NCBI GenBank assembly: GCA_002070355.1
Contig: MWDC01000002.1
Coordinates: 8,814 to 72,813, forward strand
Direction of reading: 5' to 3'
Length of the DNA: 64,000 nucleotides
DNA from: Parcubacteria group bacterium ADurb.Bin159
Lineage (GTDB): Bacteria; Patescibacteriota; Patescibacteriia; UBA2591; MWDC01
Part shown: piece by piece, positions 1 to 54,222 of the stretch
How the letters are laid out: each line of letters begins with the position of its first letter
Numbering within the stretch: the first letter of the stretch is position 1
Made by a program: the position numbers and the translations under genes
The notes under the pieces: generated by a model
What the model was told of the DNA's origin: nothing
The model's database searches: none
The model's input: only the letters and a program-made list of their open reading frames with translations

Positions 1-638
1 CCATAAATTTAAAAGAAAATATTAAAAATTTTAGTCCGGCTAAAATAGACAAAAGAATTCCTTCTTTTTGTCCGGGTTGTCCTCATCAGCCAGTTTTTTA
101 CGCGGTAAGAGAAGTTTTGGGTAAAGATAAAATTTATGGCGGCGATATTGGCTGTTATTTATTGGGGGCAATGCCTCCTTTTTATGGTGAAGATTTTATT
201 GTGGCTATGGGCGCGGGAATAGGCATATCGCATGGCATTAGCCAAACAAATAAAAAAAAGCCAGTGGCTTTTATTGGTGATTCCACTTTTTTTCACGCGG
301 GCATTCCTGCTTTGATAAATTTAATTTTTAATCAAGCTGATATTTTAGTGATTATTTTGAACAATCATTTTACCTCTATGACCGGACAGCAGCCGCATCC
401 AGAAACCGGAGAAAACGCCCGAGGCATAACTAAAAAAATTGCGATTGAAGATGTGGTTAAATCTATTCAAGTTGATTGGGTGAAAACCGTCAGCGCTTAT
501 AATTTAACTGAGTTAAAAAAAGCCCTTAAAGAGGGTTATGAGAAAAAAGGGGTTTGTGTTTTAATTACCGAAGGTCCCTGTCGTCTCGGTAAAAGACTTA
601 AGGGTGGAACCCTTAAATCCCCTGTAGTAGAGCGGTAA
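1..638 (+). CDS. iorA: indolepyruvate/2-oxoacid:ferredoxin oxidoreductase alpha (TPP-binding) subunit, 3' portion; gene begins upstream of window
   Basis: Frame is open from nt 3. The translation contains SFCPGCPHQPVFYAV (CPGCPH motif) and the GDIGCY / FIGDSTFFHAGIPALIN TPP-binding signatures. The last ~14 codons (KRLKGGTLKSPVVER) are encoded by the 41-bp hairpin repeat at 595-635. Confidence 0.7.
   Translation, partial: INLKENIKNFSPAKIDKRIPSFCPGCPHQPVFYAVREVLGKDKIYGGDIGCYLLGAMPPFYGEDFIVAMGAGIGISHGISQTNKKKPVAFIGDSTFFHAGIPALINLIFNQADILVIILNNHFTSMTGQQPHPETGENARGITKKIAIEDVVKSIQVDWVKTVSAYNLTELKKALKEGYEKKGVCVLITEGPCRLGKRLKGGTLKSPVVER
595..635 (+). repeat. 41-bp hairpin repeat R2, copy 1 (gacttaagggTGGAAcccttaaatcccctgtagtagagcgg)
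   Basis: Near-identical to 20101-20141. The stem is cttaaggg/cccttaa(g). The 5-nt loop TGGAA is the reverse complement of the loop TTCCA in copy 2, while the 3' tail tcccctgtagtagagcgg is in the same orientation. It ends 11 nt before the iorB ATG. Confidence 0.8.
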
Positions 639-646
639 AAACAACT

Positions 647-1216
647 ATGACAAAATTTTTTAATTTAATTATTTGCGGTTATGGAGGCCAAGGAGTTTTA
701 ACTTTGGCGGAAATAATTTCTCGCGCTGCTTTGGAAGAAAATTATAAAGTAATGGAATCCGAGTTGCACGGTTTAGCGCAAAGAGGCGGTCCTTTGGATT
801 GCCATATTAGAATGGGAAAAAACCAAGAATTTTTTTCTCCCTTAATCAGGCGAGGGGAAGCGGATTTAATTATTGCTTTGGATTTATTAGAAGCTTGGCG
901 GGCTTGTTATTTCGCTAACAAAAAAAAGACGAAAATTATTAGTAACGAAGAAATAGGTTTTCTTGGTAAATGGCAGGGGACGGACAAAAAACAAATGATT
1001 TCCCAAATTAAAAAAAACAGTCAAGAACAAGAATTTATAGAAGCAACAAAAATAGTTAAAGAAAACGTGGGGATTATTGGGCCTTTAAATATTTTTATGC
1101 TTTCTCAAGCGCTGAAAAAAAATTATCTCCCCTTAAAGAGGGAGACAGTTTGGCGAGTTATTGAAGAAAGATTAAAAGGTAAAAATTTGGAAATTAATAA
1201 AAAAGTTTTTTGTTAG
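647..1216 (+). CDS. iorB: indolepyruvate ferredoxin oxidoreductase beta subunit (POR/OFOR gamma-type catalytic domain)
   Basis: 189 aa. N-terminus ICGYGGQGVLTLAEIISRAAL..GLAQRGGPLDCHIRMG is the typical IorB/PorG fold. It lies 9 nt downstream of iorA. Confidence 0.75.
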   Translation: MTKFFNLIICGYGGQGVLTLAEIISRAALEENYKVMESELHGLAQRGGPLDCHIRMGKNQEFFSPLIRRGEADLIIALDLLEAWRACYFANKKKTKIISNEEIGFLGKWQGTDKKQMISQIKKNSQEQEFIEATKIVKENVGIIGPLNIFMLSQALKKNYLPLKRETVWRVIEERLKGKNLEINKKVFC

Positions 1217-1461
1217 GGTCAGACCCCAAAAACCGACCGCTGATAACCCTTTATTGATGCGGGTTTGCGGGCGATTTTTCAAAAATGGCACGATTTTGAT
1301 CAGAATTTGGAATTTAGAATTTTAAATATAAAATTTATTTTATTTTTATCATTTTTTACATTATTTTAAATTTGGTAAAAAAAGTGTCAAAATTGATTTT
1401 CGGGCGATTTTACCCTTTATTGATGCGGGTTTGCAGAGGTCGGAAAAAGGGGACTGTCCCC
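1216..1461 (-). repeat. modular intergenic repeat element, copy A (~246 bp), an inverted copy of element F at 53985-54222
   Basis: Modules found: M2 palindrome GGGTCAGACCCC (1216-1227); M3 ccctttattgatgcgggttt twice (1247-1266, 1413-1432); M5 aaaaatggcacgattttgat (1281-1300); AT-rich core; M1 palindrome GGGGACTGTCCCC (1449-1461). The reverse complement aligns to copy F over the full length at roughly 85-90% identity. Confidence 0.85.
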
Positions 1462-3659
1462 TTTGCAATTGACTTTGGCCAATCTTGAATAAGAAGAAGA
1501 TTGGCTTTTTCATTTGGATGAAATTCTTGCCAAATTTTTTCCGTGACAAAGGGAATAAACGGGTGTAAAAGTTTAAGCAGATCAAATAAAATTAAATATA
1601 AAATTTTAATTGTTTGATCCTTTAACTCAGCGTTTTTAATTTGTTTTTTAGCGGTTTCAATATATATATCGGCTAATTCGTGCCAAGAAAACTGATAAAG
1701 CTCTTGCGCGGCTTTACCTAATTCGTATTGTTCGATTTTTGAAGTAACGGAAATAATTATTTCGTTTAATCGCGAAAGGATTTGAATATCAGCAGGGGTC
1801 AGATTTTTATAATTTATTTTTTCTTTACTAAAATCTGTATCTATTGAATCTTGCATTTTTATAAATCGGGCAATGTTATAAATTTTATTAACGAAATTTC
1901 TCGCTCCCACTAAAGAGCGTTCATCAAATTTTATAGATTGCTGTTCTGGGGTAAGATTAAAAATTAAGCTCCAGCGAGTGGCATCGGCTCCGTAATTTTT
2001 AATTAAGTTTAATGGGTCAACGCCTGTGCCCAATGATTTGCTCATTCGTCGGCCTTCGGGGTTAAGAATAGTGGGATGAATATAAACCGTGGAAAACGGA
2101 ATTTTGCCGGTAAATTCTAAAGAGGAAAAAATCATTCGGGATACCCACAGATAAAGAATTTCTTGGGCAGTAGTTAAAAAATCAGTAGGATAAAAATTTT
2201 TTAAATCTTTTGTTTTTTTAGGCCAGCCAAGAATGGCAAATGGCCAAAGAGCAGAAGAAAACCAGGTATCTAACACATCGGGGACTTGCTCGTATTCTGA
2301 ATTACATATGGGGCATTTTTCTTTCGGCTTATTTATGGAAACTATGAAATTTGTTTTTTGGTTTTGATGGGCAGATTTTGAATTTTCTGCTTGACATTGC
2401 CAAACAGGCAATCTGTGCCCCCACCACAATTGGCGGGAAATACACCAATCTTCGATATTTTGAAGCCAATTAAAATATAATTTTTCTAAACGTGAGGGAA
2501 TTATTTTGATTTTTCCTTGTTTTACTACTTTAATGGCTGGGCGAACCAATTTATCCATTTTAATAAACCACTGAGTAGATATTTGCGGTTCGATAGGCGT
2601 TAGACACCGGTCGCATAAAGAAAGATGGTGAGTATAATCTTCTTCTTTAACTAATAATTTGAGACGTTCTAACTCCTCCTTTATTTTCTGCCGCGCTTCT
2701 AAAACAGGCAGCCCTTTATATTTACCCGCTTCATCAGTCATTTTTGCTTGCGGGCCAATAACATTTATAATTTTTAATTTATGCGCTTGGCCAATTTTCC
2801 AGTCAAGAGCATCGTGGGCAGGGGTGATTTTAACTGCTCCGGTGCCAAATTGAGGGTCAACAAAATGATTGGCAATAATAGGTATCTCCCGGTTAACTAT
2901 GGGCAGAATTGCTGTTTTGCCTATTAAATTTTTATATCTTTTGTCCTTAGGATTAACGGCTATGGCGGTATCGCCCAACATTGTTTCCGGCCGAGTAGTA
3001 GCCACAATAATATATTCTGAATTTTGAATTAAATTTGAATTTTTAATTTTATATTTTATATAGTAAAGTTTTGTTTTTTCTTCTTTATATTTAATTTCAA
3101 TATCAGAAATGGCTGTTTCGCATCTTGGACACCAGTTAACTAAACGCGGGCCACGATAAATATAGCCCTTTTGGTAATAATGAAAAAAAGCTTTCTCTAC
3201 AGCAGTGGAATAATCATCATCTAAAGTAAAACGAGTTCTTGACCAGTCGCAAGAACAACCCAATTTTTCAAATTGTGATAAAATAATATTGCCATATTTT
3301 TCTTTCCATTGCCAAACATACTCTAAAAATTTTTCACGGCCAATATTTTTGCGAGTTATTCCTTTTTTAGCTAATTCTTTTTCTACAACATTTTGAGTGG
3401 CAATGCCGGCATGGTCAGTACCGGGAACCCATAAAGTTTTTTCTCCTTTAAGCCGATGATAGCGAATTAAAATATCTTGAATAGTGGAGTTTAGGGCATG
3501 TCCCATATGGAGAGAACCGGTAATATTTGGTGGAGGGATAGCAATTACAAATTTTTTCTTTCTTTTCCCTGGCAGATTATCAGGATTAAAAAAGCCGCTC
3601 TCTTTCCAGAGCTGGTAAATTTCCTCTTCAAATTTTTCCGCTTGCCATTTCGGCTCCAT
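1410..3659 (-). CDS. valS: valine--tRNA ligase (short form, about 749 aa, no long C-terminal coiled coil)
   Basis: PPPNITGSLHMGHALN (HIGH region), KMSKS motif, and the CP1 editing motif GTGAVKITPAHD. The last ~17 codons are read through repeat element A. Confidence 0.9.
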   Translation of the reverse strand: MEPKWQAEKFEEEIYQLWKESGFFNPDNLPGKRKKKFVIAIPPPNITGSLHMGHALNSTIQDILIRYHRLKGEKTLWVPGTDHAGIATQNVVEKELAKKGITRKNIGREKFLEYVWQWKEKYGNIILSQFEKLGCSCDWSRTRFTLDDDYSTAVEKAFFHYYQKGYIYRGPRLVNWCPRCETAISDIEIKYKEEKTKLYYIKYKIKNSNLIQNSEYIIVATTRPETMLGDTAIAVNPKDKRYKNLIGKTAILPIVNREIPIIANHFVDPQFGTGAVKITPAHDALDWKIGQAHKLKIINVIGPQAKMTDEAGKYKGLPVLEARQKIKEELERLKLLVKEEDYTHHLSLCDRCLTPIEPQISTQWFIKMDKLVRPAIKVVKQGKIKIIPSRLEKLYFNWLQNIEDWCISRQLWWGHRLPVWQCQAENSKSAHQNQKTNFIVSINKPKEKCPICNSEYEQVPDVLDTWFSSALWPFAILGWPKKTKDLKNFYPTDFLTTAQEILYLWVSRMIFSSLEFTGKIPFSTVYIHPTILNPEGRRMSKSLGTGVDPLNLIKNYGADATRWSLIFNLTPEQQSIKFDERSLVGARNFVNKIYNIARFIKMQDSIDTDFSKEKINYKNLTPADIQILSRLNEIIISVTSKIEQYELGKAAQELYQFSWHELADIYIETAKKQIKNAELKDQTIKILYLILFDLLKLLHPFIPFVTEKIWQEFHPNEKANLLLIQDWPKSIAKGTVPFFRPLQTRINKG

Positions 3660-4629: not shown

Positions 4630-5655
4630 ATGGATATTCTAAATATCAAAAAACAAATAGAAGAAGATATTAGCCGCGTGAGGACATTAAATGATTTAGA
4701 AAATATTTCTAAAAAATATTTAGGCAGAAAAGGCGAGATTACTCGTTTTTTTGATGAAATAAAAAATTTTTCTTCAAAGCAAAGAGCAGAGAAAGGAAGA
4801 GAGGGGAATGAACTTAAAAATTGGTTAATTACCCAAATAGAAAGCAAGAGGCAAATATTTGAAAAGGGAGGAGAAGAGAGTAAATACAAAAAAGATATAG
4901 ACATTACTCAGCCCGGGGAAAAAATAGAAAGGGGTAATTTGTCGCTGATTACCCAGATGAAAAATGAAATAGAAATGTTTTTTCTTTCTATGGGGTTTGA
5001 TATAGCTGAGGGGCCGAATGTGGAAACAGAATTTTATAATTTTGATGCCTTAAATATACCAGAATATCATCCGGCTCGAGATATACAAGATACTTTTTGG
5101 CTGAAAGAAAAGGGAATAAATAAAGAAAAATTACTTTTGCGCACTCACACTTCGCCGGTGCAAATAAGATATATGAGAGAGCATAAGCCGCCGCTGAAAA
5201 TGATAACTATTGGCAATACTTTTAGACATGAAGCCATTGATGCTTCCCATGAAGCGCAATTTTGCCAAATGGAAGGGTTGGCTGTTGATAAAAACATTTC
5301 TTTGGCGAATTTAAAAGATGTGGTGGAAAATTTTTTGCGGCATTTTTTCGGCAAAAAAATGGCTATTCAATGGCGACCAGGTTATTTTCCTTTTGTTGAG
5401 CCGGGAGTAGAAGTGGATATGGAGTGTTTGATGTGTCGCGGAAAAGGATGTCCGGTTTGTAAAAATAGTGGATGGCTGGAAGTAATGGGGGCAGGAATGG
5501 TTCATCCGTATGTTTTAAAAAAAGGAGGTATTGACCCTCATAAATGGCAGGGATTTGCTTTTGGTATAGGCATTGACCGTTTGGTGATGTTAAGACACTG
5601 TATTACTGACATTCGAGTTTTCCGCGGGGGACAGTCCCCAAAGATTGACTTCTGA
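4630..5655 (+). CDS. pheS: phenylalanine--tRNA ligase alpha subunit
   Basis: 341 aa. The class II core motifs FRHEAIDASHEAQFCQMEGL and GAGMVHP are present. The last codons run into repeat element B. Confidence 0.95.
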   Translation: MDILNIKKQIEEDISRVRTLNDLENISKKYLGRKGEITRFFDEIKNFSSKQRAEKGREGNELKNWLITQIESKRQIFEKGGEESKYKKDIDITQPGEKIERGNLSLITQMKNEIEMFFLSMGFDIAEGPNVETEFYNFDALNIPEYHPARDIQDTFWLKEKGINKEKLLLRTHTSPVQIRYMREHKPPLKMITIGNTFRHEAIDASHEAQFCQMEGLAVDKNISLANLKDVVENFLRHFFGKKMAIQWRPGYFPFVEPGVEVDMECLMCRGKGCPVCKNSGWLEVMGAGMVHPYVLKKGGIDPHKWQGFAFGIGIDRLVMLRHCITDIRVFRGGQSPKIDF

Positions 5656-5933
5656 AAATCCGCATAAATAAAGGCGAAACAAGCGAATTTTTAAAATTAG
5701 GGTTGTGGACCCTAAATTTGAAAAATTATTTAAATTGGTCAAAAAATATATTAGTATTAAAGGAACAGTCCCCAAAAAAAGTAAAAAGTTGTTTAAATTG
5801 ATTAAAAAATATAATTTTTATTTTGAATAAACAAAATTCTAAATTTAGGGTTGTGAGCCCTAAATTTGAAAAATGCCTTTGAAACGCAGATGAATAAAGG
5901 CTTTTAGAGGGGCGGAAACAAGGGACTGTCCCC
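5627..5933 (+). repeat. modular intergenic repeat element, copy B (long form with an internal partial duplication)
   Basis: M1 GGGGACAGTCCCC (5627-5639); M3 aaatccgcataaataaaggc (5656-5675); M4 palindrome tagggttgtggaccctaa (5698-5715); half M1 ggaacagtcccc (5762-5773); M4 copy (5846-5863); M3-like cgcagatgaataaaggc (5885-5901); M1 (5922-5933). It is co-linear with copy E. Confidence 0.85.
5789..5815 (+). promoter_or_regulatory. promoter-like TTGTTT-N15-TATAAT embedded in repeat B, facing pheT
   Basis: The same arrangement (TTGCTT-N15-TATAAT) occurs at the equivalent position of repeat E (14772-14798). The 15-nt spacer is shorter than optimal. Confidence 0.35.
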
Positions 5934-5951
5934 AAAAAACCCAAAAAAATT

Positions 5952-9441: not shown

Positions 9442-9617
9442 TAAAAAGGATAGTTCCCACAAAGTAATCCTATAAAATCAATAAAGGGCTATCTTTTAAA
9501 AAAATAAAATAACTTGTCTTATTTTGTTTACTCTGTTTACTGACAGGCAGGCGGCAGACAGGCGTTTTTTGCCTATTTAAAAATTAATCACAAAAAATAT
9601 AAGAAAAGGAGGAAAAA

Positions 9618-11868: not shown

Positions 11869-11973
11869 ATGGGGTCTCCGCTTAAATGGGGTCAGACCCC
11901 CAAAACCAACCTCCGGAAAGCCGCATAAATAAAAGGATATCTTTCAAATTTTTAAAAATGGCACGATTTTGAT
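11863..11973 (+). repeat. modular intergenic repeat, copy D (partial: tandem 14-mer, M2, M3, M5)
   Basis: gcttaaatggggtc occurs twice (11863-11876, 11880-11893). M2 GGGGTCAGACCCCC (11888-11901); M3 ccgcataaataaaagg (11921-11936) in the opposite orientation relative to M2/M5 compared with copy A; M5 aaaaatggcacgattttgat (11954-11973). Confidence 0.75.
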
Positions 11974-13785: not shown

Positions 13786-14727
13786 TTGATATATTTTATG
13801 TTTTCCATTGTTTCAAAAAGAAAAATTTTTTTTAGCATATCAGCGGTTGTTTGTTTAGCGGCAATTTTATGTTTGATTATTTGCCCCCTGAAATTAGGTA
13901 TTGATTTTACTGGTGGAGCAATGATTGAATTGTCCTTTGAAGAAAGGCCGTCAATAGAACAAATTAAAGAAAAGCTCAATTCTTTTAATTTAGGAGAAGT
14001 AAAAATCAGTCAAACAGGAGAGAATGGTTATCTTTTAAGATTTAAAGAAATTGACGAGCAAACTCACCAAGAAATTCTTAAAGTATTAACCGGCGCTAAA
14101 GAGGAAAGATATGAAATTGTTGGGCCGACTATTGGGCAAGAAGTAAAAACAAAAGCGAAAACAGCGATTATTTTGTCAGTTATTCTTATATTTGTTTATA
14201 TTGTTTGGGCTTTTCGTAAAATATCACGTTTTTTTGGCAGGCAGGAATCATGGCGTTATGGAGCAGGAGCAATTTTAGCCTTAGTTCATGATATGTTGAT
14301 TATGTGTGGATTTTTTGCTTTGCTCGGTTTTTTGAAGGGAACAGAAGTGGACACGCTTTTTATTAGCGCCTTATTAACGATTTTAGGATATTCAGTCAAT
14401 GATACTATTGTTATTTATGACCGCATTAGGGAAAACACCCTTCTCTACGGCAGAGATAATTTTGAAGAGGTGGTTAATCTTTCTTTAAACGAATCTTTAG
14501 TTCGTTCTTTAAATACTTCTTTAACTACTCTTTTAGTGGTTTTGACCATTGCTTTATTTACTGGTTCAAGTACTCAAATATTTGCTTTAGCTTTAGCTGT
14601 GGGTATTATATCCGGTACTTGGTCTACTATTGCCATTGCTACACCCTTTGTCCTTTTGGGCCACACCAAAAAGGGGACAGTCCCCAAAAGTCGACCTTCG
14701 CAAACCCGCATAAACATTGGCTTTTAG
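13786..14727 (+). CDS. secF: protein translocase subunit SecF
   Basis: LGIDFTGG motif with an RND-like TM region. The last ~15 codons (GTVPKSRPSQTRINIGF) run into repeat E. Confidence 0.9.
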   Translation: MIYFMFSIVSKRKIFFSISAVVCLAAILCLIICPLKLGIDFTGGAMIELSFEERPSIEQIKEKLNSFNLGEVKISQTGENGYLLRFKEIDEQTHQEILKVLTGAKEERYEIVGPTIGQEVKTKAKTAIILSVILIFVYIVWAFRKISRFFGRQESWRYGAGAILALVHDMLIMCGFFALLGFLKGTEVDTLFISALLTILGYSVNDTIVIYDRIRENTLLYGRDNFEEVVNLSLNESLVRSLNTSLTTLLVVLTIALFTGSSTQIFALALAVGIISGTWSTIAIATPFVLLGHTKKGTVPKSRPSQTRINIGF

Positions 14728-14918
14728 GACGAATTTTAAAAATTAGGGCTGTGAACCCTAAATTTGCAAAATTGCTTAAATTGGTCAAAAAATATAATTT
14801 TTATTTTAAATAAACAAAATTCTGAAAATTAGGGTTGTGAACCCTAATTTTGAAAAAATGCCTTTGAAACGCAGATGAATAAAGGCTTTTGGAGGGGCGG
14901 AAACGGGGGACTGTCCCC
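14673..14918 (+). repeat. modular intergenic repeat element, copy E (canonical long form)
   Basis: M1 (14673-14685); M3 variant aaacccgcataaacattggc (14702-14721); M4 tagggctgtgaaccctaa (14744-14761); promoter-like TTGCTT-N15-TATAAT (14772-14798); M4 (14830-14847); cgcagatgaataaaggc (14870-14886); M1 (14905-14918). It is co-linear with copy B. Confidence 0.85.
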
Positions 14919-14931
14919 AAAATAATAGAAT

Positions 14932-18155: not shown

Positions 18156-18506
18156 ATGTCTCCTTTTCTTCAAAAACAATATAAAGAAAGAAAAGAAAAG
18201 AAAAATTTGATTATAAATATTATTCTTTTGGCTGTTTTTATCTTTTTTTTCGTTTCTACTATAGTGATAACTAATTTAAATCGAGACACCATAGAAGATT
18301 TAATTGTTTTAAGAGAAAAGACGAATAATTTAAAAATAGAAAACGAAGTTTTGTCTTTAAAATTCTCTCAAGCATTAGAACTTAGTAAATTAGAGAAGAG
18401 AGCAAAGGAGCTTTCGTATCTTCCTCTCTCTTCTATTATTTGGCTTAAATTACAGCCAGAAATTTTAGTAAAAAGTGACTTACTATCAAACGAAAAACAA
18501 TTTTAA
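18156..18506 (+). CDS. ftsL: FtsL-like small bitopic division protein
   Basis: 116 aa, a single TM helix followed by a coiled-coil segment. It sits between rsmH and the PBP gene. Confidence 0.5.
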   Translation: MSPFLQKQYKERKEKKNLIINIILLAVFIFFFVSTIVITNLNRDTIEDLIVLREKTNNLKIENEVLSLKFSQALELSKLEKRAKELSYLPLSSIIWLKLQPEILVKSDLLSNEKQF

Positions 18507-20100
18507 ACGGCTTAATTTGATGACGGGATGCGTTTTCATCTGCGCCTTAATAATTTTGGGGCGTCTTTTTTATTGCCAAATTATTGATAATTCTTTAATA
18601 AAAGCGGCGACGAATATAGAAAATACAGGGCATCAAAGAGCGGAAATTTTTGCCACTGATAAAACAGGAAAAGATTGGCCAATTGCCGTTAATATTGTAA
18701 TGTGGCGCCTTATTGCTGACCCTTCAAAAATTGACGAGCCGGTTTCCACATTAAAAATTCTTTCTCCCTTTTTAGATATTCCATCAAAATTTTTTGATGA
18801 AGATTTTTTGGAAGACAGCGAAGAAAATTTAGAATTTAAGAAATTGGTTAATCGTCTTTCTAATAAAAATTCTTATTATGAAATTTTAAAAATCGTTGAT
18901 AGAGAAGAAAAAGAAAAAATTGAACAGATGAGAATTCCCGGAATTTATTTTGAAGAAATAGATGGACGTTTTTGGCCAGAAAAAGATTATTTTGGCCAGA
19001 TTACTGGATTTACCAGATTAGAAAATGGCAAACTTGTTGGTCAATATGGTTTGGAAAAATTGATTGATGAATCAGATAATAAAAATTTATATATTACTAT
19101 TGATAGAACTCTTCAATTTTTTAGTTGTCAGCTTTTGAAAGAATCTTTAAAAAATTATAAGGCGGAGGGGGGGACAATTATTGTTTTAAATAAAGAAGGG
19201 GCTATTAAAGCTATGTGCAATTTGCCGAGTTTTGACCCTAATGATTATTCTTCTATCAGCGATTTTCATCTTTTCCAAAATGCCTCTATAGAAACTCCTT
19301 ATGAACCGGGTTCTATTTTCAAAATGATTACTATGGCGGCAGGATTGGATTCAAAAAAAGTAAAACCAGAGACAACTTATTTTGATCAAGGTTTTGTTAA
19401 AATTGGTCCAGAACCAAAAATTATTAAAAATTCAACAGGCCAGAGTTATGGAGAGCAAACAATGACTAATGTTTTGGAAAAATCTTTGAATACTGGCGCG
19501 GTTTGGGTGGCTAAACAGGTAGGCAGGGATTTATTTAAATATTACGTCAAGGAATTCGGTTTTGGCAGTTTAAGTGGGGTAGAATTGCCCGAAGAAGCTA
19601 AGGGTAATATTGATAATTTAGACAAGCCAAGTGAAATTTATTTAGCTACTGCCTCTTTTGGCCAAGGGCTTACTACTACTTCTTTGCAATTAGCTAATGC
19701 CTTTTTAGCCGTGGCTAATCAAGGAAAATTATACAGACCTTATATTTTAAGAGAAACAGGACCTTATTTTGTGAAACAAGTTATTAGCGAAGAAGCAGCG
19801 GAAGATTTAACAGAAATGTTAGTTTCAGTAGTGGAAAATGGTTATGGCCGTCGAGCTAAAGTAGCTGGCTATAAAGTTGCCGGCAAAACAGGAACAGCCG
19901 AAGTTCCTGAAGAAGGGGAATATAAAGGAAAAGTTATTCATTCTTTTGTGGGATTTGCCCCGGCGGAAAATCCTGAATTTGTAGCTTTGGTTAAATTAGA
20001 TAATCCTCAAATAGGCACATTTTCTGAATATACTGCTGTACCTGTTTTTGGCCAATTAGCCGATTTTGTTTTAAAATATTATCGTATCCCTCCTCAATAA
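18475..20100 (+). CDS. ftsI: peptidoglycan D,D-transpeptidase (class B PBP, FtsI-like); the likely start is the internal ATG at 18520
   Basis: SXXK (PGSIFKM), SXN (KSLNTG) and KTG (AGKTGTA) motifs, plus an N-terminal TM helix and dimerisation domain. Confidence 0.85.
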   Translation: MTYYQTKNNFKRLNLMTGCVFICALIILGRLFYCQIIDNSLIKAATNIENTGHQRAEIFATDKTGKDWPIAVNIVMWRLIADPSKIDEPVSTLKILSPFLDIPSKFFDEDFLEDSEENLEFKKLVNRLSNKNSYYEILKIVDREEKEKIEQMRIPGIYFEEIDGRFWPEKDYFGQITGFTRLENGKLVGQYGLEKLIDESDNKNLYITIDRTLQFFSCQLLKESLKNYKAEGGTIIVLNKEGAIKAMCNLPSFDPNDYSSISDFHLFQNASIETPYEPGSIFKMITMAAGLDSKKVKPETTYFDQGFVKIGPEPKIIKNSTGQSYGEQTMTNVLEKSLNTGAVWVAKQVGRDLFKYYVKEFGFGSLSGVELPEEAKGNIDNLDKPSEIYLATASFGQGLTTTSLQLANAFLAVANQGKLYRPYILRETGPYFVKQVISEEAAEDLTEMLVSVVENGYGRRAKVAGYKVAGKTGTAEVPEEGEYKGKVIHSFVGFAPAENPEFVALVKLDNPQIGTFSEYTAVPVFGQLADFVLKYYRIPPQ

Positions 20101-20141
20101 GACTTAAGGGTTCCACCCTTAAGTCCCCTGTAGTAGAGCGG
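20101..20141 (+). repeat. 41-bp hairpin repeat R2, copy 2 (gacttaagggTTCCAcccttaagtcccctgtagtagagcgg)
   Basis: It starts 1 nt after the ftsI stop and ends 10 nt before the murF ATG. The loop is inverted relative to copy 1. Confidence 0.8.
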
Positions 20142-20151
20142 AAATTGAGAT

Positions 20152-21399
20152 ATGAGTTTTAGAAAAATTATTCAATTTATTTTAAAGAAAAAAGCGAAAA
20201 AAGTCGTTCGCCGCTTTAATCCTTTGGTTATTGGCATAACCGGCAGTGTAGGAAAATCATCAACTAAAGAAATGATTGCTTTAGCTTTGTCTTCAAAATT
20301 TTCTCGTCTTCGCCAATCACCTTCAAATTATAATAATGAAGTTGGCTTACCTTTGACTATTTTAAACGAAAAAGGGCAAGAAAATAATTTAGGTAAATGG
20401 CTTAGTCTTTTTTGGCGAACAAGAGGAAGAGCACTACGACAGATGAAAGAATATCCGGAAATATTAGTTTTAGAAATGGCTGCTGACCATCCCGGAGATA
20501 TTTCCTATCTTCTTTCTATTGTCAAGCCTAAAATCGGTATTCTTACTGCTATCGCTCCTTGTCATTTGGAATATTTTAAAAATATAGAAAATGTTAAACG
20601 GGAAAAAATAAAATTATTAACTAGCATTAGCGAAGATGGTTGGGCTATTTTTAATTCTGACGATCCGAATTTAAGCGATATTAAACAAAAAATAAAAGCA
20701 AAAATTATCACTTTCGGATTTAATCCTTCGTCTGATATTTATCCTTTAGAAATTCAACTTGACCAAGAGTTAAAAGGCAAAAGAATTCATATTTTAGGGC
20801 TTCGTTTTAAAATAAAATGCCAAGGAAATGTTATTCCTGTATTTTTACCTAAGGTTTTATCAGGGTCTTTGGTTAATTCTGTTTTAGCCACTATGGCTGT
20901 GGGTGTTACTCAAGAAATCAATCTTTTAAAAATTGCTGAAAAAATAAGACAATATAAGCCGCTTTCTCAAAGAATGAATTTAATTTATGGGAAAAATGGA
21001 ACATTGATTATTGATGATACTTACAATTCTTCTCCTTATTCTTTAAAAAGCGCTCTCTCTGATTTGGATCAAATAAAAAATCATCCGCAAACCCAAAAAT
21101 GGGTGGTTTTATCAGATATGTTGGAATTGGGCGTTGAAGGGAAAAAATATCATTTAGAAATAGGGCAAGAAATAGCGCGGAAGAAAGATTGCCGATTAGT
21201 GGCTACAGGGGATTTATCTCTTTATTTTGTTAAAGGAGCGAGAGAGGAAGGAACGAGCAAAGAAAGGGCTTTATATTTTAAGGAAAAGCAGCAAGCCATA
21301 GAATATCTTTTAAAAAATATTAAAGAAGGAGATGTTATTTTGGTTAAAGGTTCTCGCGCTACTAAAATGGAAGAAGTGGTAGAAAAACTGAAAAAATAA
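20152..21399 (+). CDS. murF: Mur ligase family protein, probably UDP-MurNAc-tripeptide--D-Ala-D-Ala ligase (short form)
   Basis: ITGSVGKSSTKEMIA is the P-loop typical of MurF. The position after ftsI fits the dcw order. At 415 aa it is short. Confidence 0.7.
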   Translation: MSFRKIIQFILKKKAKKVVRRFNPLVIGITGSVGKSSTKEMIALALSSKFSRLRQSPSNYNNEVGLPLTILNEKGQENNLGKWLSLFWRTRGRALRQMKEYPEILVLEMAADHPGDISYLLSIVKPKIGILTAIAPCHLEYFKNIENVKREKIKLLTSISEDGWAIFNSDDPNLSDIKQKIKAKIITFGFNPSSDIYPLEIQLDQELKGKRIHILGLRFKIKCQGNVIPVFLPKVLSGSLVNSVLATMAVGVTQEINLLKIAEKIRQYKPLSQRMNLIYGKNGTLIIDDTYNSSPYSLKSALSDLDQIKNHPQTQKWVVLSDMLELGVEGKKYHLEIGQEIARKKDCRLVATGDLSLYFVKGAREEGTSKERALYFKEKQQAIEYLLKNIKEGDVILVKGSRATKMEEVVEKLKK

Positions 21400-21412: not shown

Positions 21413-21441
21413 AAAAAAACCGAGATATTTCGGTTTTTTTT
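21413..21441. terminator. bidirectional intrinsic terminator (A7-ccga-gatatt-tcgg-T7) between convergent murF and smc
   Basis: aaaaaaaccgagatatttcggttttttt. Confidence 0.55.
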
Positions 21442-38078: not shown

Positions 38079-38153
38079 TGGTCGGGGTAGCCGGACTTGA
38101 ACCGGCGACCTCATCGTCCCGAACGATGCGCGCTACCACTGCGCTATACCCCG
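38079..38153 (-). tRNA. tRNA-Pro (anticodon CGG), with CCA encoded
   Basis: The reverse complement reads CGGGGTA-TA-GCGC-AGTGGTA-GCGC-G-CATCG-TTCGGGA-CGATG-AGGTC-GCCGG-TTCAAGT-CCGGC-TACCCCG-A-CCA. This is a canonical cloverleaf with a 7-bp acceptor stem and TTCGGGA anticodon loop. Two ORF-track entries (37933-38190 and 38097-38462) overlap it and are spurious. Confidence 0.9.
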
Positions 38154-40575: not shown

Positions 40576-41802
40576 ATGGCGTTTTTTAGGACAATTAAAA
40601 ATATTAAAAATCTTTACGGGAAACGAGTTTTAATGCGCGTTGATTTTAATTTTACCCTAAAAGACGGAAAACCCATAGATAGTTTTCGTTTAAAAGCCAT
40701 ATTTCCTACTTTAGAATTTTTAAAACCATTTAGAACAAAACTAATTTTAATCAGTCATTTTGGCGAACCCAAGGGAAAATTTGATAAAAAATATAGTTTA
40801 GAGCCTATAGCTAAATGGCTATTAAACCAAGATAAAATTTTTCAAAACTTAAAATTTATTGTCAATCCGTTTGAGAAAGAGGGGAGAGAAGCAATCCAAA
40901 ATTTGAAAGAAGGAGATATTGCTCTTTTAGAAAATATCCGCTTCTGGAAAGGAGAAGAAGAAAATAATCCAAAATTTGCGCAAAAATTAGCTAATTTTGG
41001 GGATATTTATATTAACGAAGCATTTTCTGTTTCTCATCGAGCACATTCTTCTATAACGGGATTACCTAAAATTTTACCCAGTTACGCTGGGATAAATTTT
41101 GAAAATGAAGTTAATAATTTAAATCAAGTTTTAAAAAAATATCATCATCCTTTTACTCTTATTTTAGGAGGAGCAAAAATTAGCACTAAACTTGGTTTGC
41201 TTTTAAATTTTAAGAACAAAGCAAATTTTATTCTTATTGGCGGCGCTATGGCTAACACTTTTTTAAAAGCAAAGGGATCCAATATAGGCAATTCTTTAAT
41301 AGAAGAAACAATGCTTTCAAAAGCCAAAGAAATTCTAAAACAAAAAAATTTGATTTTACCTAATGATGTGATGATAAAAATGAGAAATAAAAAAATACGA
41401 ATTATAGATATTGACAAATTAAACGATTTAAAGCATAATGATTTTAAGATATTGGATATTGGCCCGAAAACGATAAAAAAATTTTCTGATATTATTAAAA
41501 CATCTAAAGAAATAATTTGGAATGGACCATTAGGTTATTTTGAGGAGAAACCCTTTACTCAAGGAACGGTAAAAATAATTCAAAGTATTTTGTCTAATAA
41601 AAAGGCGAGAATAACTATTGGTGGGGGAGAAACCATAGTTTGCCTTGGACAGGCAAAGGTTAAACGTCCGATGCCAAATGCCGAAAATAAAATATTCGTT
41701 TCTACTGGAGGAGGGGCGATGCTTGAATTTTTAAGCGGGAAAGAATTACCCGGTTTAATCGCCTTGACAAAAAATAAGGATTTGGTAAATTTAAATAAAT
41801 AA
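40576..41802 (+). CDS. pgk: phosphoglycerate kinase
   Basis: 408 aa. N-terminus VLMRVDFNFTLKDGKPID, the hinge, and C-terminal nucleotide-binding GGGETIV / GGGAMLEFL motifs. Confidence 0.9.
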   Translation: MAFFRTIKNIKNLYGKRVLMRVDFNFTLKDGKPIDSFRLKAIFPTLEFLKPFRTKLILISHFGEPKGKFDKKYSLEPIAKWLLNQDKIFQNLKFIVNPFEKEGREAIQNLKEGDIALLENIRFWKGEEENNPKFAQKLANFGDIYINEAFSVSHRAHSSITGLPKILPSYAGINFENEVNNLNQVLKKYHHPFTLILGGAKISTKLGLLLNFKNKANFILIGGAMANTFLKAKGSNIGNSLIEETMLSKAKEILKQKNLILPNDVMIKMRNKKIRIIDIDKLNDLKHNDFKILDIGPKTIKKFSDIIKTSKEIIWNGPLGYFEEKPFTQGTVKIIQSILSNKKARITIGGGETIVCLGQAKVKRPMPNAENKIFVSTGGGAMLEFLSGKELPGLIALTKNKDLVNLNK

Positions 41803-41814
41803 AATAATTTAGCC

Positions 41815-41901
41815 GAAGAAAGTAGGGGATTATAACAATCTTAAAAATCCTATTGAGGCAAAACATTAGACCTACTTTCTTCTTTATACTGTAGGTTTTT
41901 T
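41815..41901 (+). terminator. pgk 3' structure: a perfect 12-bp inverted repeat gaagaaagtagg/cctactttcttc (41815-41826 and 41871-41882), plus an alternative cctac..gtagg + T6 hairpin (41871-41901)
   Basis: There are two mutually exclusive pairings for the cctac segment. The T-run is followed by tatataat (41901-41908), a -10-like box. Confidence 0.45.
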
Positions 41902-41944
41902 ATATAATTAAAAAATAAATTTTACCTTTACTAAACAGAAATTT

Positions 41945-52312: not shown

Positions 52313-53983
52313 ATGCCTCAAAACAACACATCTCCCACTTCCGAAGAAATGGAAAAAAAATTAAAAGATAAACTTAGCGGTCTTGCTTTAGAAAAGGAAG
52401 AAGAAAACGCTAGAAATATGGCTTACAGCTTAGGATTAGATTATATTAATTTATATAACTTTCCTATTGCCCCGGAAGCCTTAAGGTTAATTTCCGAAGA
52501 AGAGGCGAGACAATTTAATACTGTTTGTTTTTGGTTGGGAGAGAAAGAGGCGAAATTAGCTACAACCTTAATAGAAAAATCAAAAATAAGAGAATTCCAA
52601 AAAATTTTTGAAGAAAGGGCGGGGGTATCTACTCGTCTTTTTTTTGTTTCTCAAAATAGTTTAAAATATGCTCTTGATTTTTATAAAACGCTTCCCAAAA
52701 TTTATCAGCCATCTAAGGGGGTTCAAATTACTTCTGTTGATTTAGCACGTTTTGAAGATAAAATAAAAACCTTTAAGGATTTAAACGAAGAGATAAAAAA
52801 TGTTTCTATTTCAGATATCGTAACCTTAATTGTTGCTTCAGCTATTAATTCCCGCGCTTCAGATATTCATATAGAAGCAGAAGAAAAGGAAATTAAAGTT
52901 CGATTTAGAGTTGATGGAGTTTTAGTGGATGTAGCTGATATAGATAAAGATTTATGGAAAAGTATTATTTCGCGTATAAAATTACTCTCCGCTCTTAAAA
53001 TTAACATTAATGACCAACCCCAAGATGGCCGTTTTACCATAAATTTGCCGAACGATAAAGTAGATGTAAGGGTTTCTACTTTGCCGACGGCATTTGGAGA
53101 AAGCGTAGTAATGAGGTTGCTTCGTTCTTCTTCTGTTGGTTTGCAATTTGAAGATTTAGGTTTAATAGACAGGGCGTTTGACATACTATCCCGGGCAATT
53201 AAGAGGCCGAATGGTATGATTATTACCACTGGTCCGACTGGTTCAGGGAAAACGACTACTCTTTACGCTATTTTAAATAAAATTAATCGGCCAGAAATAA
53301 AAATTCTTACTTTAGAAGACCCTATTGAATATCACTTAGAAGGAATTAATCAAAGTCAAGTAGATAAAGAAAAAGATTATACTTTTGCTAAAGGCCTTCG
53401 CTCACTTATGCGGCAAGATCCTGATGTAATAATGATTGGAGAAATTAGGGACGGGGAAACAGCAGAAATAGCTATTCAAGCAGCTTTAACCGGCCATTTA
53501 GTTATTTCCACTCTTCATACTAATGACGCCGCTGGAGCAATTCCCAGATTTATTGCTTTAGGAGCAAAACCATTTCTTTTAGCCCCGGCTTTAAATGTGA
53601 TTATTGCTCAAAGATTAGTTCGCCGAATTTGCCCTGAATGCAAGAAAGAAACAAAATTATCTCCTGACCTTCTCAAAAGAGTTTCTGCTGATTTGAATAA
53701 AATTCCGCAGAAAAACAATCTTTCTTTAGAAAAACTTAAATTTTATAAAGGAGAGGGATGTTCTCATTGTCAAGGATTAGGATATCATGGCCGTATCGGT
53801 ATTTATGAGGTTTTAGAAATTACTTCAGAAGCTGAAAAGATTATCAACGAAGGAGATGTTTCTGAATATAAAATAAAAGAATTCGCCGCCAGCCAAGGGA
53901 TGGTTCCTATGGTGGGCGATGGTTTATTAAAAGCCATTAATGGAATTACTACTGTAGACGAAGTATATCGTGTCATCGAATAA
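52313..53983 (+). CDS. type II secretion / type IV pilus assembly ATPase (GspE/PilB family)
   Basis: Walker A GPTGSGKTTT, Asp/His boxes, Walker B DPDVIMIGEIRD, and the tetracysteine CPECKK..CSHCQGLGY. Confidence 0.9.
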   Translation: MPQNNTSPTSEEMEKKLKDKLSGLALEKEEENARNMAYSLGLDYINLYNFPIAPEALRLISEEEARQFNTVCFWLGEKEAKLATTLIEKSKIREFQKIFEERAGVSTRLFFVSQNSLKYALDFYKTLPKIYQPSKGVQITSVDLARFEDKIKTFKDLNEEIKNVSISDIVTLIVASAINSRASDIHIEAEEKEIKVRFRVDGVLVDVADIDKDLWKSIISRIKLLSALKININDQPQDGRFTINLPNDKVDVRVSTLPTAFGESVVMRLLRSSSVGLQFEDLGLIDRAFDILSRAIKRPNGMIITTGPTGSGKTTTLYAILNKINRPEIKILTLEDPIEYHLEGINQSQVDKEKDYTFAKGLRSLMRQDPDVIMIGEIRDGETAEIAIQAALTGHLVISTLHTNDAAGAIPRFIALGAKPFLLAPALNVIIAQRLVRRICPECKKETKLSPDLLKRVSADLNKIPQKNNLSLEKLKFYKGEGCSHCQGLGYHGRIGIYEVLEITSEAEKIINEGDVSEYKIKEFAASQGMVPMVGDGLLKAINGITTVDEVYRVIE

Positions 53984-53984
53984 A

Positions 53985-54222
53985 GGGGACAGTCCCCTTT
54001 TTCTGCCTCTCGCAAACCCGCATCAATAAAGGCTTATCTCGCGAGAAAATCAAATTTGACACTTTTTTTACCTTTTTAAAATAATAATAAAAATAAATTA
54101 AATTTTATATTCCATATTCCAAATTCTAAATTCTGATCAAAATCGTGCCATTTTTGAAAAATCGCCTGGAAATCCGCATCAATAAAGGGCTTCCTGCGGT
54201 CGGTTTTTGGGGTCTGACCCCC
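53985..54222 (+). repeat. modular intergenic repeat element, copy F (~238 bp), inverted partner of copy A
   Basis: M1 (53985-53997) starts 1 nt after the gspE stop. M3 aaacccgcatcaataaagg (54014-54032); TTGACA-N15-TAAAAT (54056-54082); AT-rich core; M5 in reverse complement (54136-54155); M3 (54170-54189); M2 GGGGTCTGACCCCC (54209-54222). Confidence 0.85.

What the first reader, a model, noticed from the sequence alone, without database searches (positions are those of the whole stretch)
595..635. 41-bp hairpin repeat with a flipped loop between copies, placed 10-11 nt upstream of start codons inside operons
The copies at 595-635 and 20101-20141 are identical except that the loop TGGAA in one is TTCCA in the other. 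The hairpin is therefore inverted in situ while its 18-nt 3' tail (tcccctgtagtagagcgg) keeps the same orientation. Both copies fill the short gap between co-directional genes (iorA-iorB and ftsI-murF). This is the signature of a stem-loop maintained for structure, for example an RNase III site, a processing or translational-coupling element, or a protein-binding hairpin, rather than for primary sequence. Module M3 also appears in both orientations relative to M2 and M5 in different copies.
Basis: seen in the sequence. Interest (0 to 1): 0.55.

Follow-up and report, generated by a model that had tools for sequence, protein, structure and literature searches.

The report
REP-type hairpin repeat of a RAYT transposase
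The 41-base hairpin repeat is a small selfish DNA element of the REP type. A matching transposase gene (RAYT-like) sits in another part of the same Parcubacteria species' genome. The flipped loop is a replication copying error (template switch), not a sign of a regulatory RNA.

Summary
The repeat is real. There are two copies, at 595-635 and 20101-20141, where chance predicts none. Each has an 11-bp stem, a 3-nt loop (GGA vs TCC) and a shared 16-nt tail.

There is a fourth difference between the copies (A617 vs G20123). Copy 1 lies inside the last 14 codons of the iorA ORF.

The unit belongs to a family, (A)GACTTAAGGGT-GGA-ACCCTTAAR-N10-TAGAGCGG. The family occurs at about 19 unrelated sites in contigs of the same or closely related Parcubacteria. 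Copies lie in both orientations and 10-40 nt from the next ATG. Some supply stop codons, and two sit in frame inside genes (GlyRS and a PP-loop ATPase).

A distant relative (MurF 59% identical) has an empty ftsI-murF site.

The key result is that a 225-aa HUH/Y1 transposase gene is flanked by inverted copies of this unit. Its best solved match is E. coli TnpA_REP. The gene lies on a contig whose LigA is 100% identical to that of the MAG holding the window's IorB.

The loop flip happened in situ between strains that are 99.8% identical. It is linked to a T>G change, and a single template switch explains all four bases.

Verdict: a new member of a known kind (REP-RAYT), lacking the canonical GTAG tag. 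Interest is modest.

The parts
595..619 (+). Copy 1 hairpin: stem 595-605/609-619, loop GGA 606-608, C597.A617 mismatch. Preceded by A594, which is part of the 42-nt family consensus AGACTT...
620..635 (+). Copy 1 tail CCCTGTAGTAGAGCGG. Its end, TAGAGCGG, is shared with the unit that abuts the transposase stop codon in L048/L141.
594..638 (+). Last 14 codons plus the stop of the iorA ORF, encoded by the element (RLKGGTLKSPVVER, then TAA at 636-638). Removing 42 nt (594-635) would leave ...GPCRLGK-TAA, a length typical of relatives.
   Evidence: the reconstruction is inference
647..1216 (+). iorB (Pfam POR domain). Its ATG lies 11 nt after the element.
18475..20100 (+). ftsI (transpeptidase). 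Its TAA at 20098-20100 directly abuts the element.
20101..20125 (+). Copy 2 hairpin: perfect 11-bp stem 20101-20111/20115-20125, loop TCC 20112-20114. This is the derived, flipped state. Other strains have T at 20101 and loop GGA.
20126..20141 (+). Copy 2 tail CCCTGTAGTAGAGCGG.
20142..20151 (+). Native 10-nt leader AAATTGAGAT of murF. It is conserved as AAATTGAGA in the empty site of relative L138.
20152..21399 (+). murF (Mur ligase domains).

Best explanation
The 41-42-nt unit is a REP-type (repetitive extragenic palindrome) element. It consists of a 5' (A)GA tag, the hairpin CTTAAGGGT-GGA-ACCCTTAAR, and a tail ending in TAGAGCGG. It is the cognate repeat of a RAYT-like HUH/Y1 transposase encoded elsewhere in the same Parcubacteria species.

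Inferred mechanism, by analogy with E. coli TnpA_REP and IS200/IS605 TnpA: the enzyme recognises the folded hairpin and its tag in single-stranded DNA, then cuts and rejoins nearby. This scatters solo units and doublets through the genome without target-site duplications.

Only insertions that spare genes survive in this compact genome. The two window copies therefore sit at the stop-codon end of two very short intercistronic gaps. The native 10-11-nt leader of the next gene is left intact, and that accounts for the apparent spacing.

The flipped loop of copy 2 is a later single replication template switch. The left arm and loop were recopied from the loop and right arm. That one event inverted the loop and corrected a stem-base mismatch.

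Shown: the repeat family, the insertion relative to a relative, the transposase flanked by the units, the same-species link, and the in-situ flip.
Inferred: enzyme-hairpin recognition, the mode of spread, and selective neutrality at the RNA level.
For: Family and boundaries. Alignment A3 gives the consensus AGACTTAAGGGTGGAACCCTTAAACGGCGCTTAATAGAGCGG. Similarity begins and ends sharply, and the flanks are unrelated. There are 32 de-duplicated hairpin sites in low-GC contigs, about 19 of them of the GGA...AAA type.

Empty site. In L138 the junction reads TAA-tt-AAATTGAGAaaatATG. In the window it reads TAA-[41 nt]-AAATTGAGAtATG.

Transposase.
- L048:1146-1820 matches Pfam Y1_Tnp (E 4.7e-12, 46.5 bits, cut-off 23).
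- Its best NCBIfam hit is REP_Tyr_transpos (E 1.6e-9), against IS200 at E 0.08.
- The HUH motif (MPNHFHLL) and the Tyr motif (RYIHGNP) are conserved in 5 homologues.
- The profile's best PDB hit is 4ER8, TnpA_REP, at E 1.4e-5 over nearly its full length.

Flanks. The unit plus a second hairpin lies upstream of the ATG. The reverse-complemented unit abuts the TAG stop.

Same species. The L141 LigA is 497/497 identical to OQB43964.1 of 'Parcubacteria group bacterium ADurb.Bin159'. The window's IorB is exactly OQB44410.1 of that same MAG.

Independent REPtron-like arrangements. Related hairpins flank RAYT-like genes in the unrelated contigs L055 and L054, and lie upstream of one in L067.

REP-like behaviour matches the published description in PMC3733652. 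Units lie between co-directional or convergent genes, supply stop codons and occur inside genes.

Flip.
- T+GGA is found in 6 contigs and G+TCC in 2, and the two changes are fully linked.
- revcomp(GGA+ACCCTTAAGTC) equals GACTTAAGGGT+TCC, which is the derived sequence.
- A second in-situ flip separates L072 from L091, which are 97.2% identical.
- Template switching is known to homogenise arms and invert spacers (PMC8794818; PMC8604942 abstract).
Against: - The canonical 5'-GTAG or CGTC tag next to the stem is absent. The NCBIfam score (37.8) is below the equivalog cut-off (80).
- No transposase gene lies in the 64-kb window itself. The link rests on identical marker proteins between MAG contigs.
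- There are only two copies in 64 kb, so copy number in this genome is unknown. Most family members were retrieved with a pattern that required an exact stem, so stem conservation cannot be judged from them.
- Mobility has not been observed directly. The empty site comes from a distant relative (MurF 59% identical).
- In GlyRS the element-bearing linker is only 4-5 aa longer than in relatives. That copy is therefore not a simple 42-nt insertion.
- An added RNA-level effect in the two operons is not excluded.
Confidence: 0.8

Rival explanations
1. A cis-acting RNA stem-loop in the operon mRNA, kept by selection for structure: an RNase III or other processing site, an mRNA stabiliser, or a translational coupling or decoupling element.
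For: Both window copies are in sense orientation, in operon-internal positions 10-11 nt before an ATG. Copy 2 folds stably (dG -17, z -3.6). The genome encodes RNase III. REPs in other bacteria are known to affect mRNA stability and translation (own knowledge; PMC3733652).
Against: Family members lie in either orientation relative to the genes (about 8 sense, 6 antisense) and 10-40 nt from the next ATG. Some lie over stop codons or inside CDSs. The unit is absent at the orthologous junction in L138 and L135. Copy 1 has a mismatch and folds no better than shuffles, and it is translated, so ribosomes would melt it. An 11-bp stem is short for classical RNase III. No Rfam family matches. The loop flip is explained mechanistically.
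Confidence: 0.1
2. An operator: a palindromic double-stranded DNA site for a dimeric regulator, whose unrecognised centre can flip freely.
For: The half-sites CTTAAGGGT/ACCCTTAAG are perfect and the spacer does not matter.
Against: The sites lie at gene 3' ends and inside CDSs rather than at promoters. No promoter-like site is called at copy 1. The copies carry an asymmetric tail and tag that an operator would not need. The sites flank a transposase gene as inverted repeats.
Confidence: 0.04
3. An intrinsic terminator or attenuator between the cistrons.
For: A GC-cored hairpin lies right after a stop codon.
Against: No T-run follows it, and the terminator scan does not call it at either site. 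The genome has canonical hairpin+T-run terminators, for example at 21413-21440. ftsI-murF and iorA-iorB are normally co-transcribed (own knowledge).
Confidence: 0.03
4. A programmed invertible switch (phase variation), or an assembly artefact at a palindrome.
For: Two loop states exist at one locus in a population.
Against: The invertible segment would be 3 nt, far too short for recombinase synapsis. No recombinase gene is adjacent. The two states sort by strain and sample and are linked to a T/G change. Each state is seen in at least 2 independent assemblies built with k-mers longer than the 25-nt hairpin (contig names k141_...).
Confidence: 0.03

Closest known systems
REP / REPIN elements with their RAYT (TnpA_REP) transposases (REPtrons), as in E. 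coli, Pseudomonas and Stenotrophomonas
   Same: Short palindromic units of 20-40 nt with a 5-13-bp stem and a small loop. They are scattered mostly downstream of genes, between co-directional or convergent ORFs. They occasionally supply stop codons or sit inside genes. Solo units and doublets both occur. A Y1/HUH transposase gene is flanked by inverted units. The transposase is closer to 4ER8 TnpA_REP than to IS200-type TnpA.
   Different: There is no 5'-GTAG or CGTC tag at the stem foot; the conserved 5' bases are (A)AGA. A 16-18-nt tail belongs to the unit. The stems are near-perfect and AT/GC mixed. The host is a Parcubacteria (CPR) genome, a group for which the searched library holds no paper that also mentions RAYT or REPIN. 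The protein scores below the NCBIfam equivalog threshold.
IS200/IS605 insertion sequences and their gene-less derivatives (PATEs)
   Same: A Y1 HUH transposase, recognition of hairpins in single-stranded DNA, and no target-site duplication.
   Different: IS200/IS605 ends are two different subterminal hairpins on the same strand, and the whole IS is multi-copy. Here the flanks are inverted copies of one unit, and only the units are dispersed.
Rickettsia palindromic elements (RPE)
   Same: Palindromic selfish DNA that survives in frame inside protein-coding genes of a reduced genome (here the iorA 3' end, the GlyRS linker and an NFACT-R loop).
   Different: The classical RPE-1 elements are reported (own knowledge) as 100-150 bp, with shorter RPE types also described (PMC3733652). 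R. conorii RPEs carry a CGTC tag, and CGTC-type repeats lack a dedicated transposase (PMC3733652). The elements here are 41-42 nt and have a RAYT-like gene.
Template-switch mutations at inverted repeats (quasipalindrome correction, hairpin-loop inversion)
   Same: A multinucleotide change that inverts the spacer and makes the arms perfectly complementary in one event.
   Different: Nothing essential. This is a clean natural example caught between near-identical strains.

Membership tests
REP-RAYT system (REPtron) | Short (about 20-40 nt) palindromic unit repeated at many unrelated, mostly extragenic sites | tested here: met
   41-42-nt unit. Two copies in the window. About 19 GGA-type sites with unrelated flanks in contigs of the same or closely related Parcubacteria.
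REP-RAYT system (REPtron) | A Y1/HUH transposase of the RAYT clade in the same genome, flanked by the units in inverted orientation | tested here: met
   The L048/L141 gene matches Y1_Tnp and, best in NCBIfam, REP_Tyr_transpos; its profile's best PDB hit is 4ER8. The flanking units are shown. Same species by LigA 100% identity and an exact IorB match to ADurb.Bin159. The gene is not inside the window itself.
REP-RAYT system (REPtron) | Conserved unpaired GTAG (or CGTC) tetranucleotide directly 5' of the stem (PMC3733652, PMC3479197) | tested here: not met
   The bases 5' of the stem are (A)AGA: GA in 12 of 19 sites and AAGA in 7. GTAG occurs only within the tail, after four intervening bases 3' of the 11-bp stem, and on the wrong side.
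REP-RAYT system (REPtron) | Inverted doublets (REPIN/BIME) as the common form | tested here: inconclusive
   Doublets exist in L141 8229-8293, L091 2697-2759 and L048 1074-1135. Both window copies are singlets.
REP-RAYT system (REPtron) | The enzyme binds and cleaves the single-stranded unit | not testable with these tools
   Needs biochemistry.
IS200/IS605 insertion sequence | Two distinct subterminal hairpins (left and right ends) on one strand, and a multi-copy whole element | tested here: not met
   The flanks are inverted copies of the same unit. The NCBIfam IS200 model scores only E 0.08.
DDE-type MITE | Terminal inverted repeats plus target-site duplication | tested here: not met
   No consistent duplication at 4 independent sites. 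TAAAA flanks copy 1 only.
Rickettsia palindromic element | CGTC-tagged palindromic element (classical RPE-1 about 100-150 bp) inserted in frame in ORFs | tested here: not met
   Length is 41-42 nt and there is no CGTC tag. In-frame copies do exist.
Intrinsic terminator | GC-rich hairpin followed by a T-run | tested here: not met
   Neither copy is called. The tail is CCCTGTAG...
Curated RNA families (Rfam 15) | Match at or near the gathering score | tested here: not met
   Best hits 7-19 bits with E > 0.6.

The most novel reading that the evidence does not exclude
Hairpins of the form TTAAGGGT-N3-ACCCTTAA mark an uncatalogued REP superfamily that spans several phyla. It has its own RAYT clade and a non-GTAG tag. 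It is still active in an ultra-small Parcubacteria genome that keeps two separate RAYT/repeat systems. Its units end up translated inside essential genes (IorA, GlyRS), making it a CPR counterpart of Rickettsia's RPEs.
Probability: 0.4. Interest if true: 0.5.

Novelty: new member of a known kind. Interest (0 to 1): 0.35.

Why it matters
This explains an odd-looking 'flipped' hairpin without needing a new regulatory RNA. It also shows that a streamlined CPR/Parcubacteria genome carries REP-RAYT-type selfish DNA, including copies read as protein. The searched library holds no paper on Patescibacteria, Parcubacteria or CPR that also mentions RAYT or REPIN. The ftsI-murF site is a clean natural record of a template-switch mutation between near-identical strains. 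Such events can mimic compensatory evolution, so it is a caution for structure-based inference. The same transposase logic probably also explains the window's other modular intergenic repeats.

Tried and rejected
- The tail 18-mer in GTDB genomes gave 3 chance hits with no hairpin beside the one inspected, L012. The species is apparently not in that collection.
- Viral contigs: the hairpin gave 0 hits, and the tail 17-mer gave 1 chance hit with no hairpin.
- Rfam at gathering and at permissive thresholds: nothing.
- Promoter and terminator scans: the element is not called.
- Shine-Dalgarno role for the tail: rejected. The genome largely lacks SD motifs.
- Target-site duplication: TAAAA flanks copy 1, but nothing comparable is found at other sites.
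- Simple 42-nt insertion in GlyRS: rejected. The linker is only 4-5 aa longer than in relatives.
- Plain inversion of the whole hairpin: rejected. It predicts ...AAGTA at the 3' end, whereas C20125 is retained.
- Gene conversion from copy 1: rejected. It would import the A/T of the mismatch.
- Transposase search among 9 small window ORFs and by tblastn of the RAYT against the window: none found.
- Literature string search for the hairpin sequences: only unrelated primer and virus hits.
- The iorA-iorB empty site could not be found. All retrieved strains, down to 96.6% identity, carry the unit.

Full report
**1. The observation**

The two copies exist as described, at 595-635 and 20101-20141 on the + strand. 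No match appeared in 100 dinucleotide-preserving shuffles. No third copy exists in the window at up to 3 mismatches, whether the whole unit, the tail or the hairpin is searched.

The anatomy is an 11-bp stem (GACTTAAGGGT/ACCCTTAAGTC), a 3-nt loop and a 16-nt tail CCCTGTAGTAGAGCGG. The loop is GGA in copy 1 (606-608) and TCC in copy 2 (20112-20114), which are reverse complements. A617 vs G20123 gives copy 1 a C.A mismatch and a much weaker fold (dG -10.8, z -1.0, against -17, z -3.6).

Pfam supports iorA/iorB and ftsI/murF. Copy 2 starts directly after the ftsI TAA. Copy 1 is inside the iorA ORF. The ORF reads through it as RLKGGTLKSPVVER and stops at the TAA immediately after the unit. The next ATG follows after 11 and 10 nt.

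**2. The flip happened in situ**

The same loci were recovered from other assemblies. At ftsI-murF, the window and L002 carry G...TCC. Six other contigs (L001, L003, L004, L005, L110, L117) carry T...GGA.

L003-5 and L117 differ from the window by only 5-7 bases in 2.6-4 kb, and four of those bases are these. The T+GGA state is found both in the closest strains (99.8%) and in more distant ones (99.1%). It also matches the family consensus. The window state is therefore derived.

All four changes follow from a single event. Replacing left arm plus loop by the reverse complement of loop plus right arm (GGA+ACCCTTAAGTC) gives GACTTAAGGGT+TCC. A plain inversion of the hairpin would have left ...AAGTA at the 3' end, which is not seen. 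This is the known signature of template switching: arm homogenisation plus spacer inversion (PMC8794818; PMC8604942 abstract).

A second in-situ flip separates L072 from L091. These are orthologous contigs, 97.2% identical over 2 kb, and one of their four hairpins is flipped. Each state at ftsI-murF is seen in at least two independent assemblies, which argues against an artefact.

**3. It is a dispersed repeat family, not an operon-specific signal**

In low-GC contigs I found about 19 independent sites of the type (A)GA-CTTAAGGGT-GGA-ACCCTTAAA. The tails fall into a few mosaic classes.

Four sites with unrelated flanks share the full 41-42-nt unit ending in TAGAGCGG. Similarity starts and stops sharply at the unit's ends (alignment A3).

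- **Orientation.** Relative to the flanking genes it is mixed, roughly 8 sense and 6 antisense.
- **Distance.** The next start codon lies 10-40 nt away.
- **Stop codons.** In several cases the hairpin's own TTAA supplies the upstream gene's stop codon.
- **Copies inside genes.** One lies in frame in the GlyRS linker (L112, LKGGTLKQQEVER, the same frame as in iorA). One lies in a loop of an NFACT-R domain (L032).
- **Duplications.** No consistent target-site duplication is seen.

All of this matches published REP behaviour (PMC3733652).

**4. Insertion**

In relative L138 (MurF 59% identical) the ftsI-murF junction reads TAA-tt-AAATTGAGAaaatATG. In the window it reads TAA-[41 nt]-AAATTGAGAtATG. 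A closer relative, L135 (70%), has an unrelated 89-nt spacer. The unit is therefore an insertion at the stop-codon end of a gap of roughly 10-15 nt, and it leaves the native leader intact.

For copy 1, removing 42 nt (594-635) restores ...GPCRLGK-TAA followed by 8 nt and the ATG. That C-terminal length is typical of Patescibacteria IorA homologues. This reconstruction is inference. Together the two cases account for the '10-11 nt upstream of ATG' pattern without invoking a function. The genome also largely lacks Shine-Dalgarno motifs.

**5. The transposase**

Scanning genes next to family members showed that L048:1146-1820 (225 aa) is a Y1/HUH transposase.

- It matches Pfam Y1_Tnp (E 4.7e-12, 46.5 bits, cut-off 23).
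- Its best NCBIfam hit is REP_Tyr_transpos (E 1.6e-9, 37.8 bits, below the equivalog cut-off of 80). The IS200 model scores only E 0.08.
- HUH (MPNHFHLL) and the tyrosine motif (RYIHGNP) are invariant in five homologues.
- The profile's best solved match is 4ER8, E. coli TnpA_REP (E 1.4e-5, nearly full length), ahead of ISDra2 TnpA.

The gene is flanked by the finding's unit in inverted orientation. Upstream lies AGACTTAAGGGTGGAACCCTTAAACGGCGCTTAATGCTGCGG, then a second hairpin, then the ATG. Downstream, the TAG stop is directly followed by CCGCTCTATTAAGCGCCGTTTAAGGGTTCCACCCTTAAGTCT, the reverse complement of AGACTT...TAGAGCGG.

The same arrangement is in NCBI contig JAKJDU010000011.1 (L141). 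That contig's LigA is 497/497 identical to OQB43964.1 of 'Parcubacteria group bacterium ADurb.Bin159'. The window's IorB is exactly OQB44410.1 of the same MAG, on a 74,175-bp contig. The transposase therefore belongs to the window's species, although it is not in the window.

Related hairpins with a CAG/CTG centre flank RAYT-like genes in the unrelated contigs L055 and L054, and lie just upstream of one in L067. These contigs had been retrieved by the hairpin alone.

**6. How it most likely works**

By analogy with TnpA_REP and IS200/IS605 TnpA (PMC3479197), the enzyme would recognise the folded hairpin and its 5' bases in single-stranded DNA, then cut and rejoin nearby, spreading units without duplications. 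This step is inferred.

In a compact genome only harmless insertions persist: gene ends, variable linkers and surface loops. The hairpin also makes the site prone to template switching, which explains the flips. The units are transcribed within operon mRNAs and may have side effects there. Nothing here shows that.

**7. Comparison and novelty**

Functionally this is a REP-RAYT (REPtron) system. It fails one classical membership criterion. There is no GTAG or CGTC tag at the stem foot; the conserved 5' bases are (A)AGA. It also differs from IS200/IS605 in having inverted identical flanks.

The searched library holds no paper on Patescibacteria, Parcubacteria or CPR that also mentions RAYT or REPIN, and the hairpin sequences are not reported there as repeats.

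I rate it a new member of a known kind, with modest interest.

Noticed in passing
window 1216-1464, 5627-5937, 11888-11957, 14673-14922, 53982-54220 (also 9477-9510, 59584-59628); L141 5427-5516 and 6140-6227: A second modular repeat family: GGGGAC(A/T)GTCCCC or GGGTCAGACCCC, then 20 nt, then CCGCATAAATAAAGG, and so on. It has the same module order and 20-nt spacing as the inverted flanks of a second Y1 transposase gene (L141 5535-6137, 200 aa) in the same species. The window's composite intergenic repeats of roughly 250-310 bp are probably gene-less derivatives of that element.
   Followed up: partly
L055 610-1312; L054 984-1700; L067 1313-2073; many CAJICE01... loci (for example L100, L046): Palindromes (C)TTAAGGGTC(A/T)GACCCTTAA(G) are multi-copy in unrelated metagenomic organisms (GC 0.3-0.65). 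In L055 and L054 they flank RAYT-like genes, and in L067 they lie just upstream of one. This suggests a widespread REP superfamily sharing this stem.
   Followed up: partly
L112 1186-1227; L032 3140-3190 (- strand): Family units lie in frame inside glycyl-tRNA synthetase (the linker between the catalytic and anticodon-binding domains) and inside an NFACT-R domain loop of a PP-loop ATPase. The GlyRS linker is only 4-5 aa longer than in relatives, so part of the native linker was replaced or lost.
   Followed up: partly
window 20092-20097 and 20144-20149: The sequences on either side of copy 2, CTCAAT and ATTGAG, are complementary. RNAfold predicts they form an outer stem enclosing the element. 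This may be chance, or the unit may have inserted at the centre of a small palindrome.
   Followed up: no
window 21413-21440: A canonical bidirectional intrinsic terminator (AAAAAAACCGA-gatatt-TCGGTTTTTTT) lies between murF and the convergent downstream gene.
   Followed up: no
window, upstream of most start codons (for example 3740, 25204, 38281, 55445): Almost no Shine-Dalgarno motifs. Leaders are AT-rich, and TATAAT-like boxes often lie only 5-10 nt before the ATG, suggesting very short or absent leaders.
   Followed up: no
window 3-638 vs homologues (alignment A1): This IorA ends a few residues after the conserved Cys. The closest homologues (50-60% identity) carry an extra C-terminal 4Fe-4S ferredoxin-like extension of about 60 aa.
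   Followed up: no
L069 698-779 and 799-1854: Three tandem family hairpins lie directly downstream of a reverse-transcriptase (RVT_1) gene.
   Followed up: no
L072 1834-1842 vs L091 2730-2738: A 9-nt indel (CTTAAAAAG) lies immediately beside the hairpin whose loop is flipped between these orthologous contigs. It may be part of the same template-switch event.
   Followed up: no
window 41795-41911; 38079-38153: A ribosomal protein L10 leader (RF00557, 51.4 bits) and a tRNA-Pro(CGG). These are the only Rfam/ARAGORN hits in the window.
   Followed up: no
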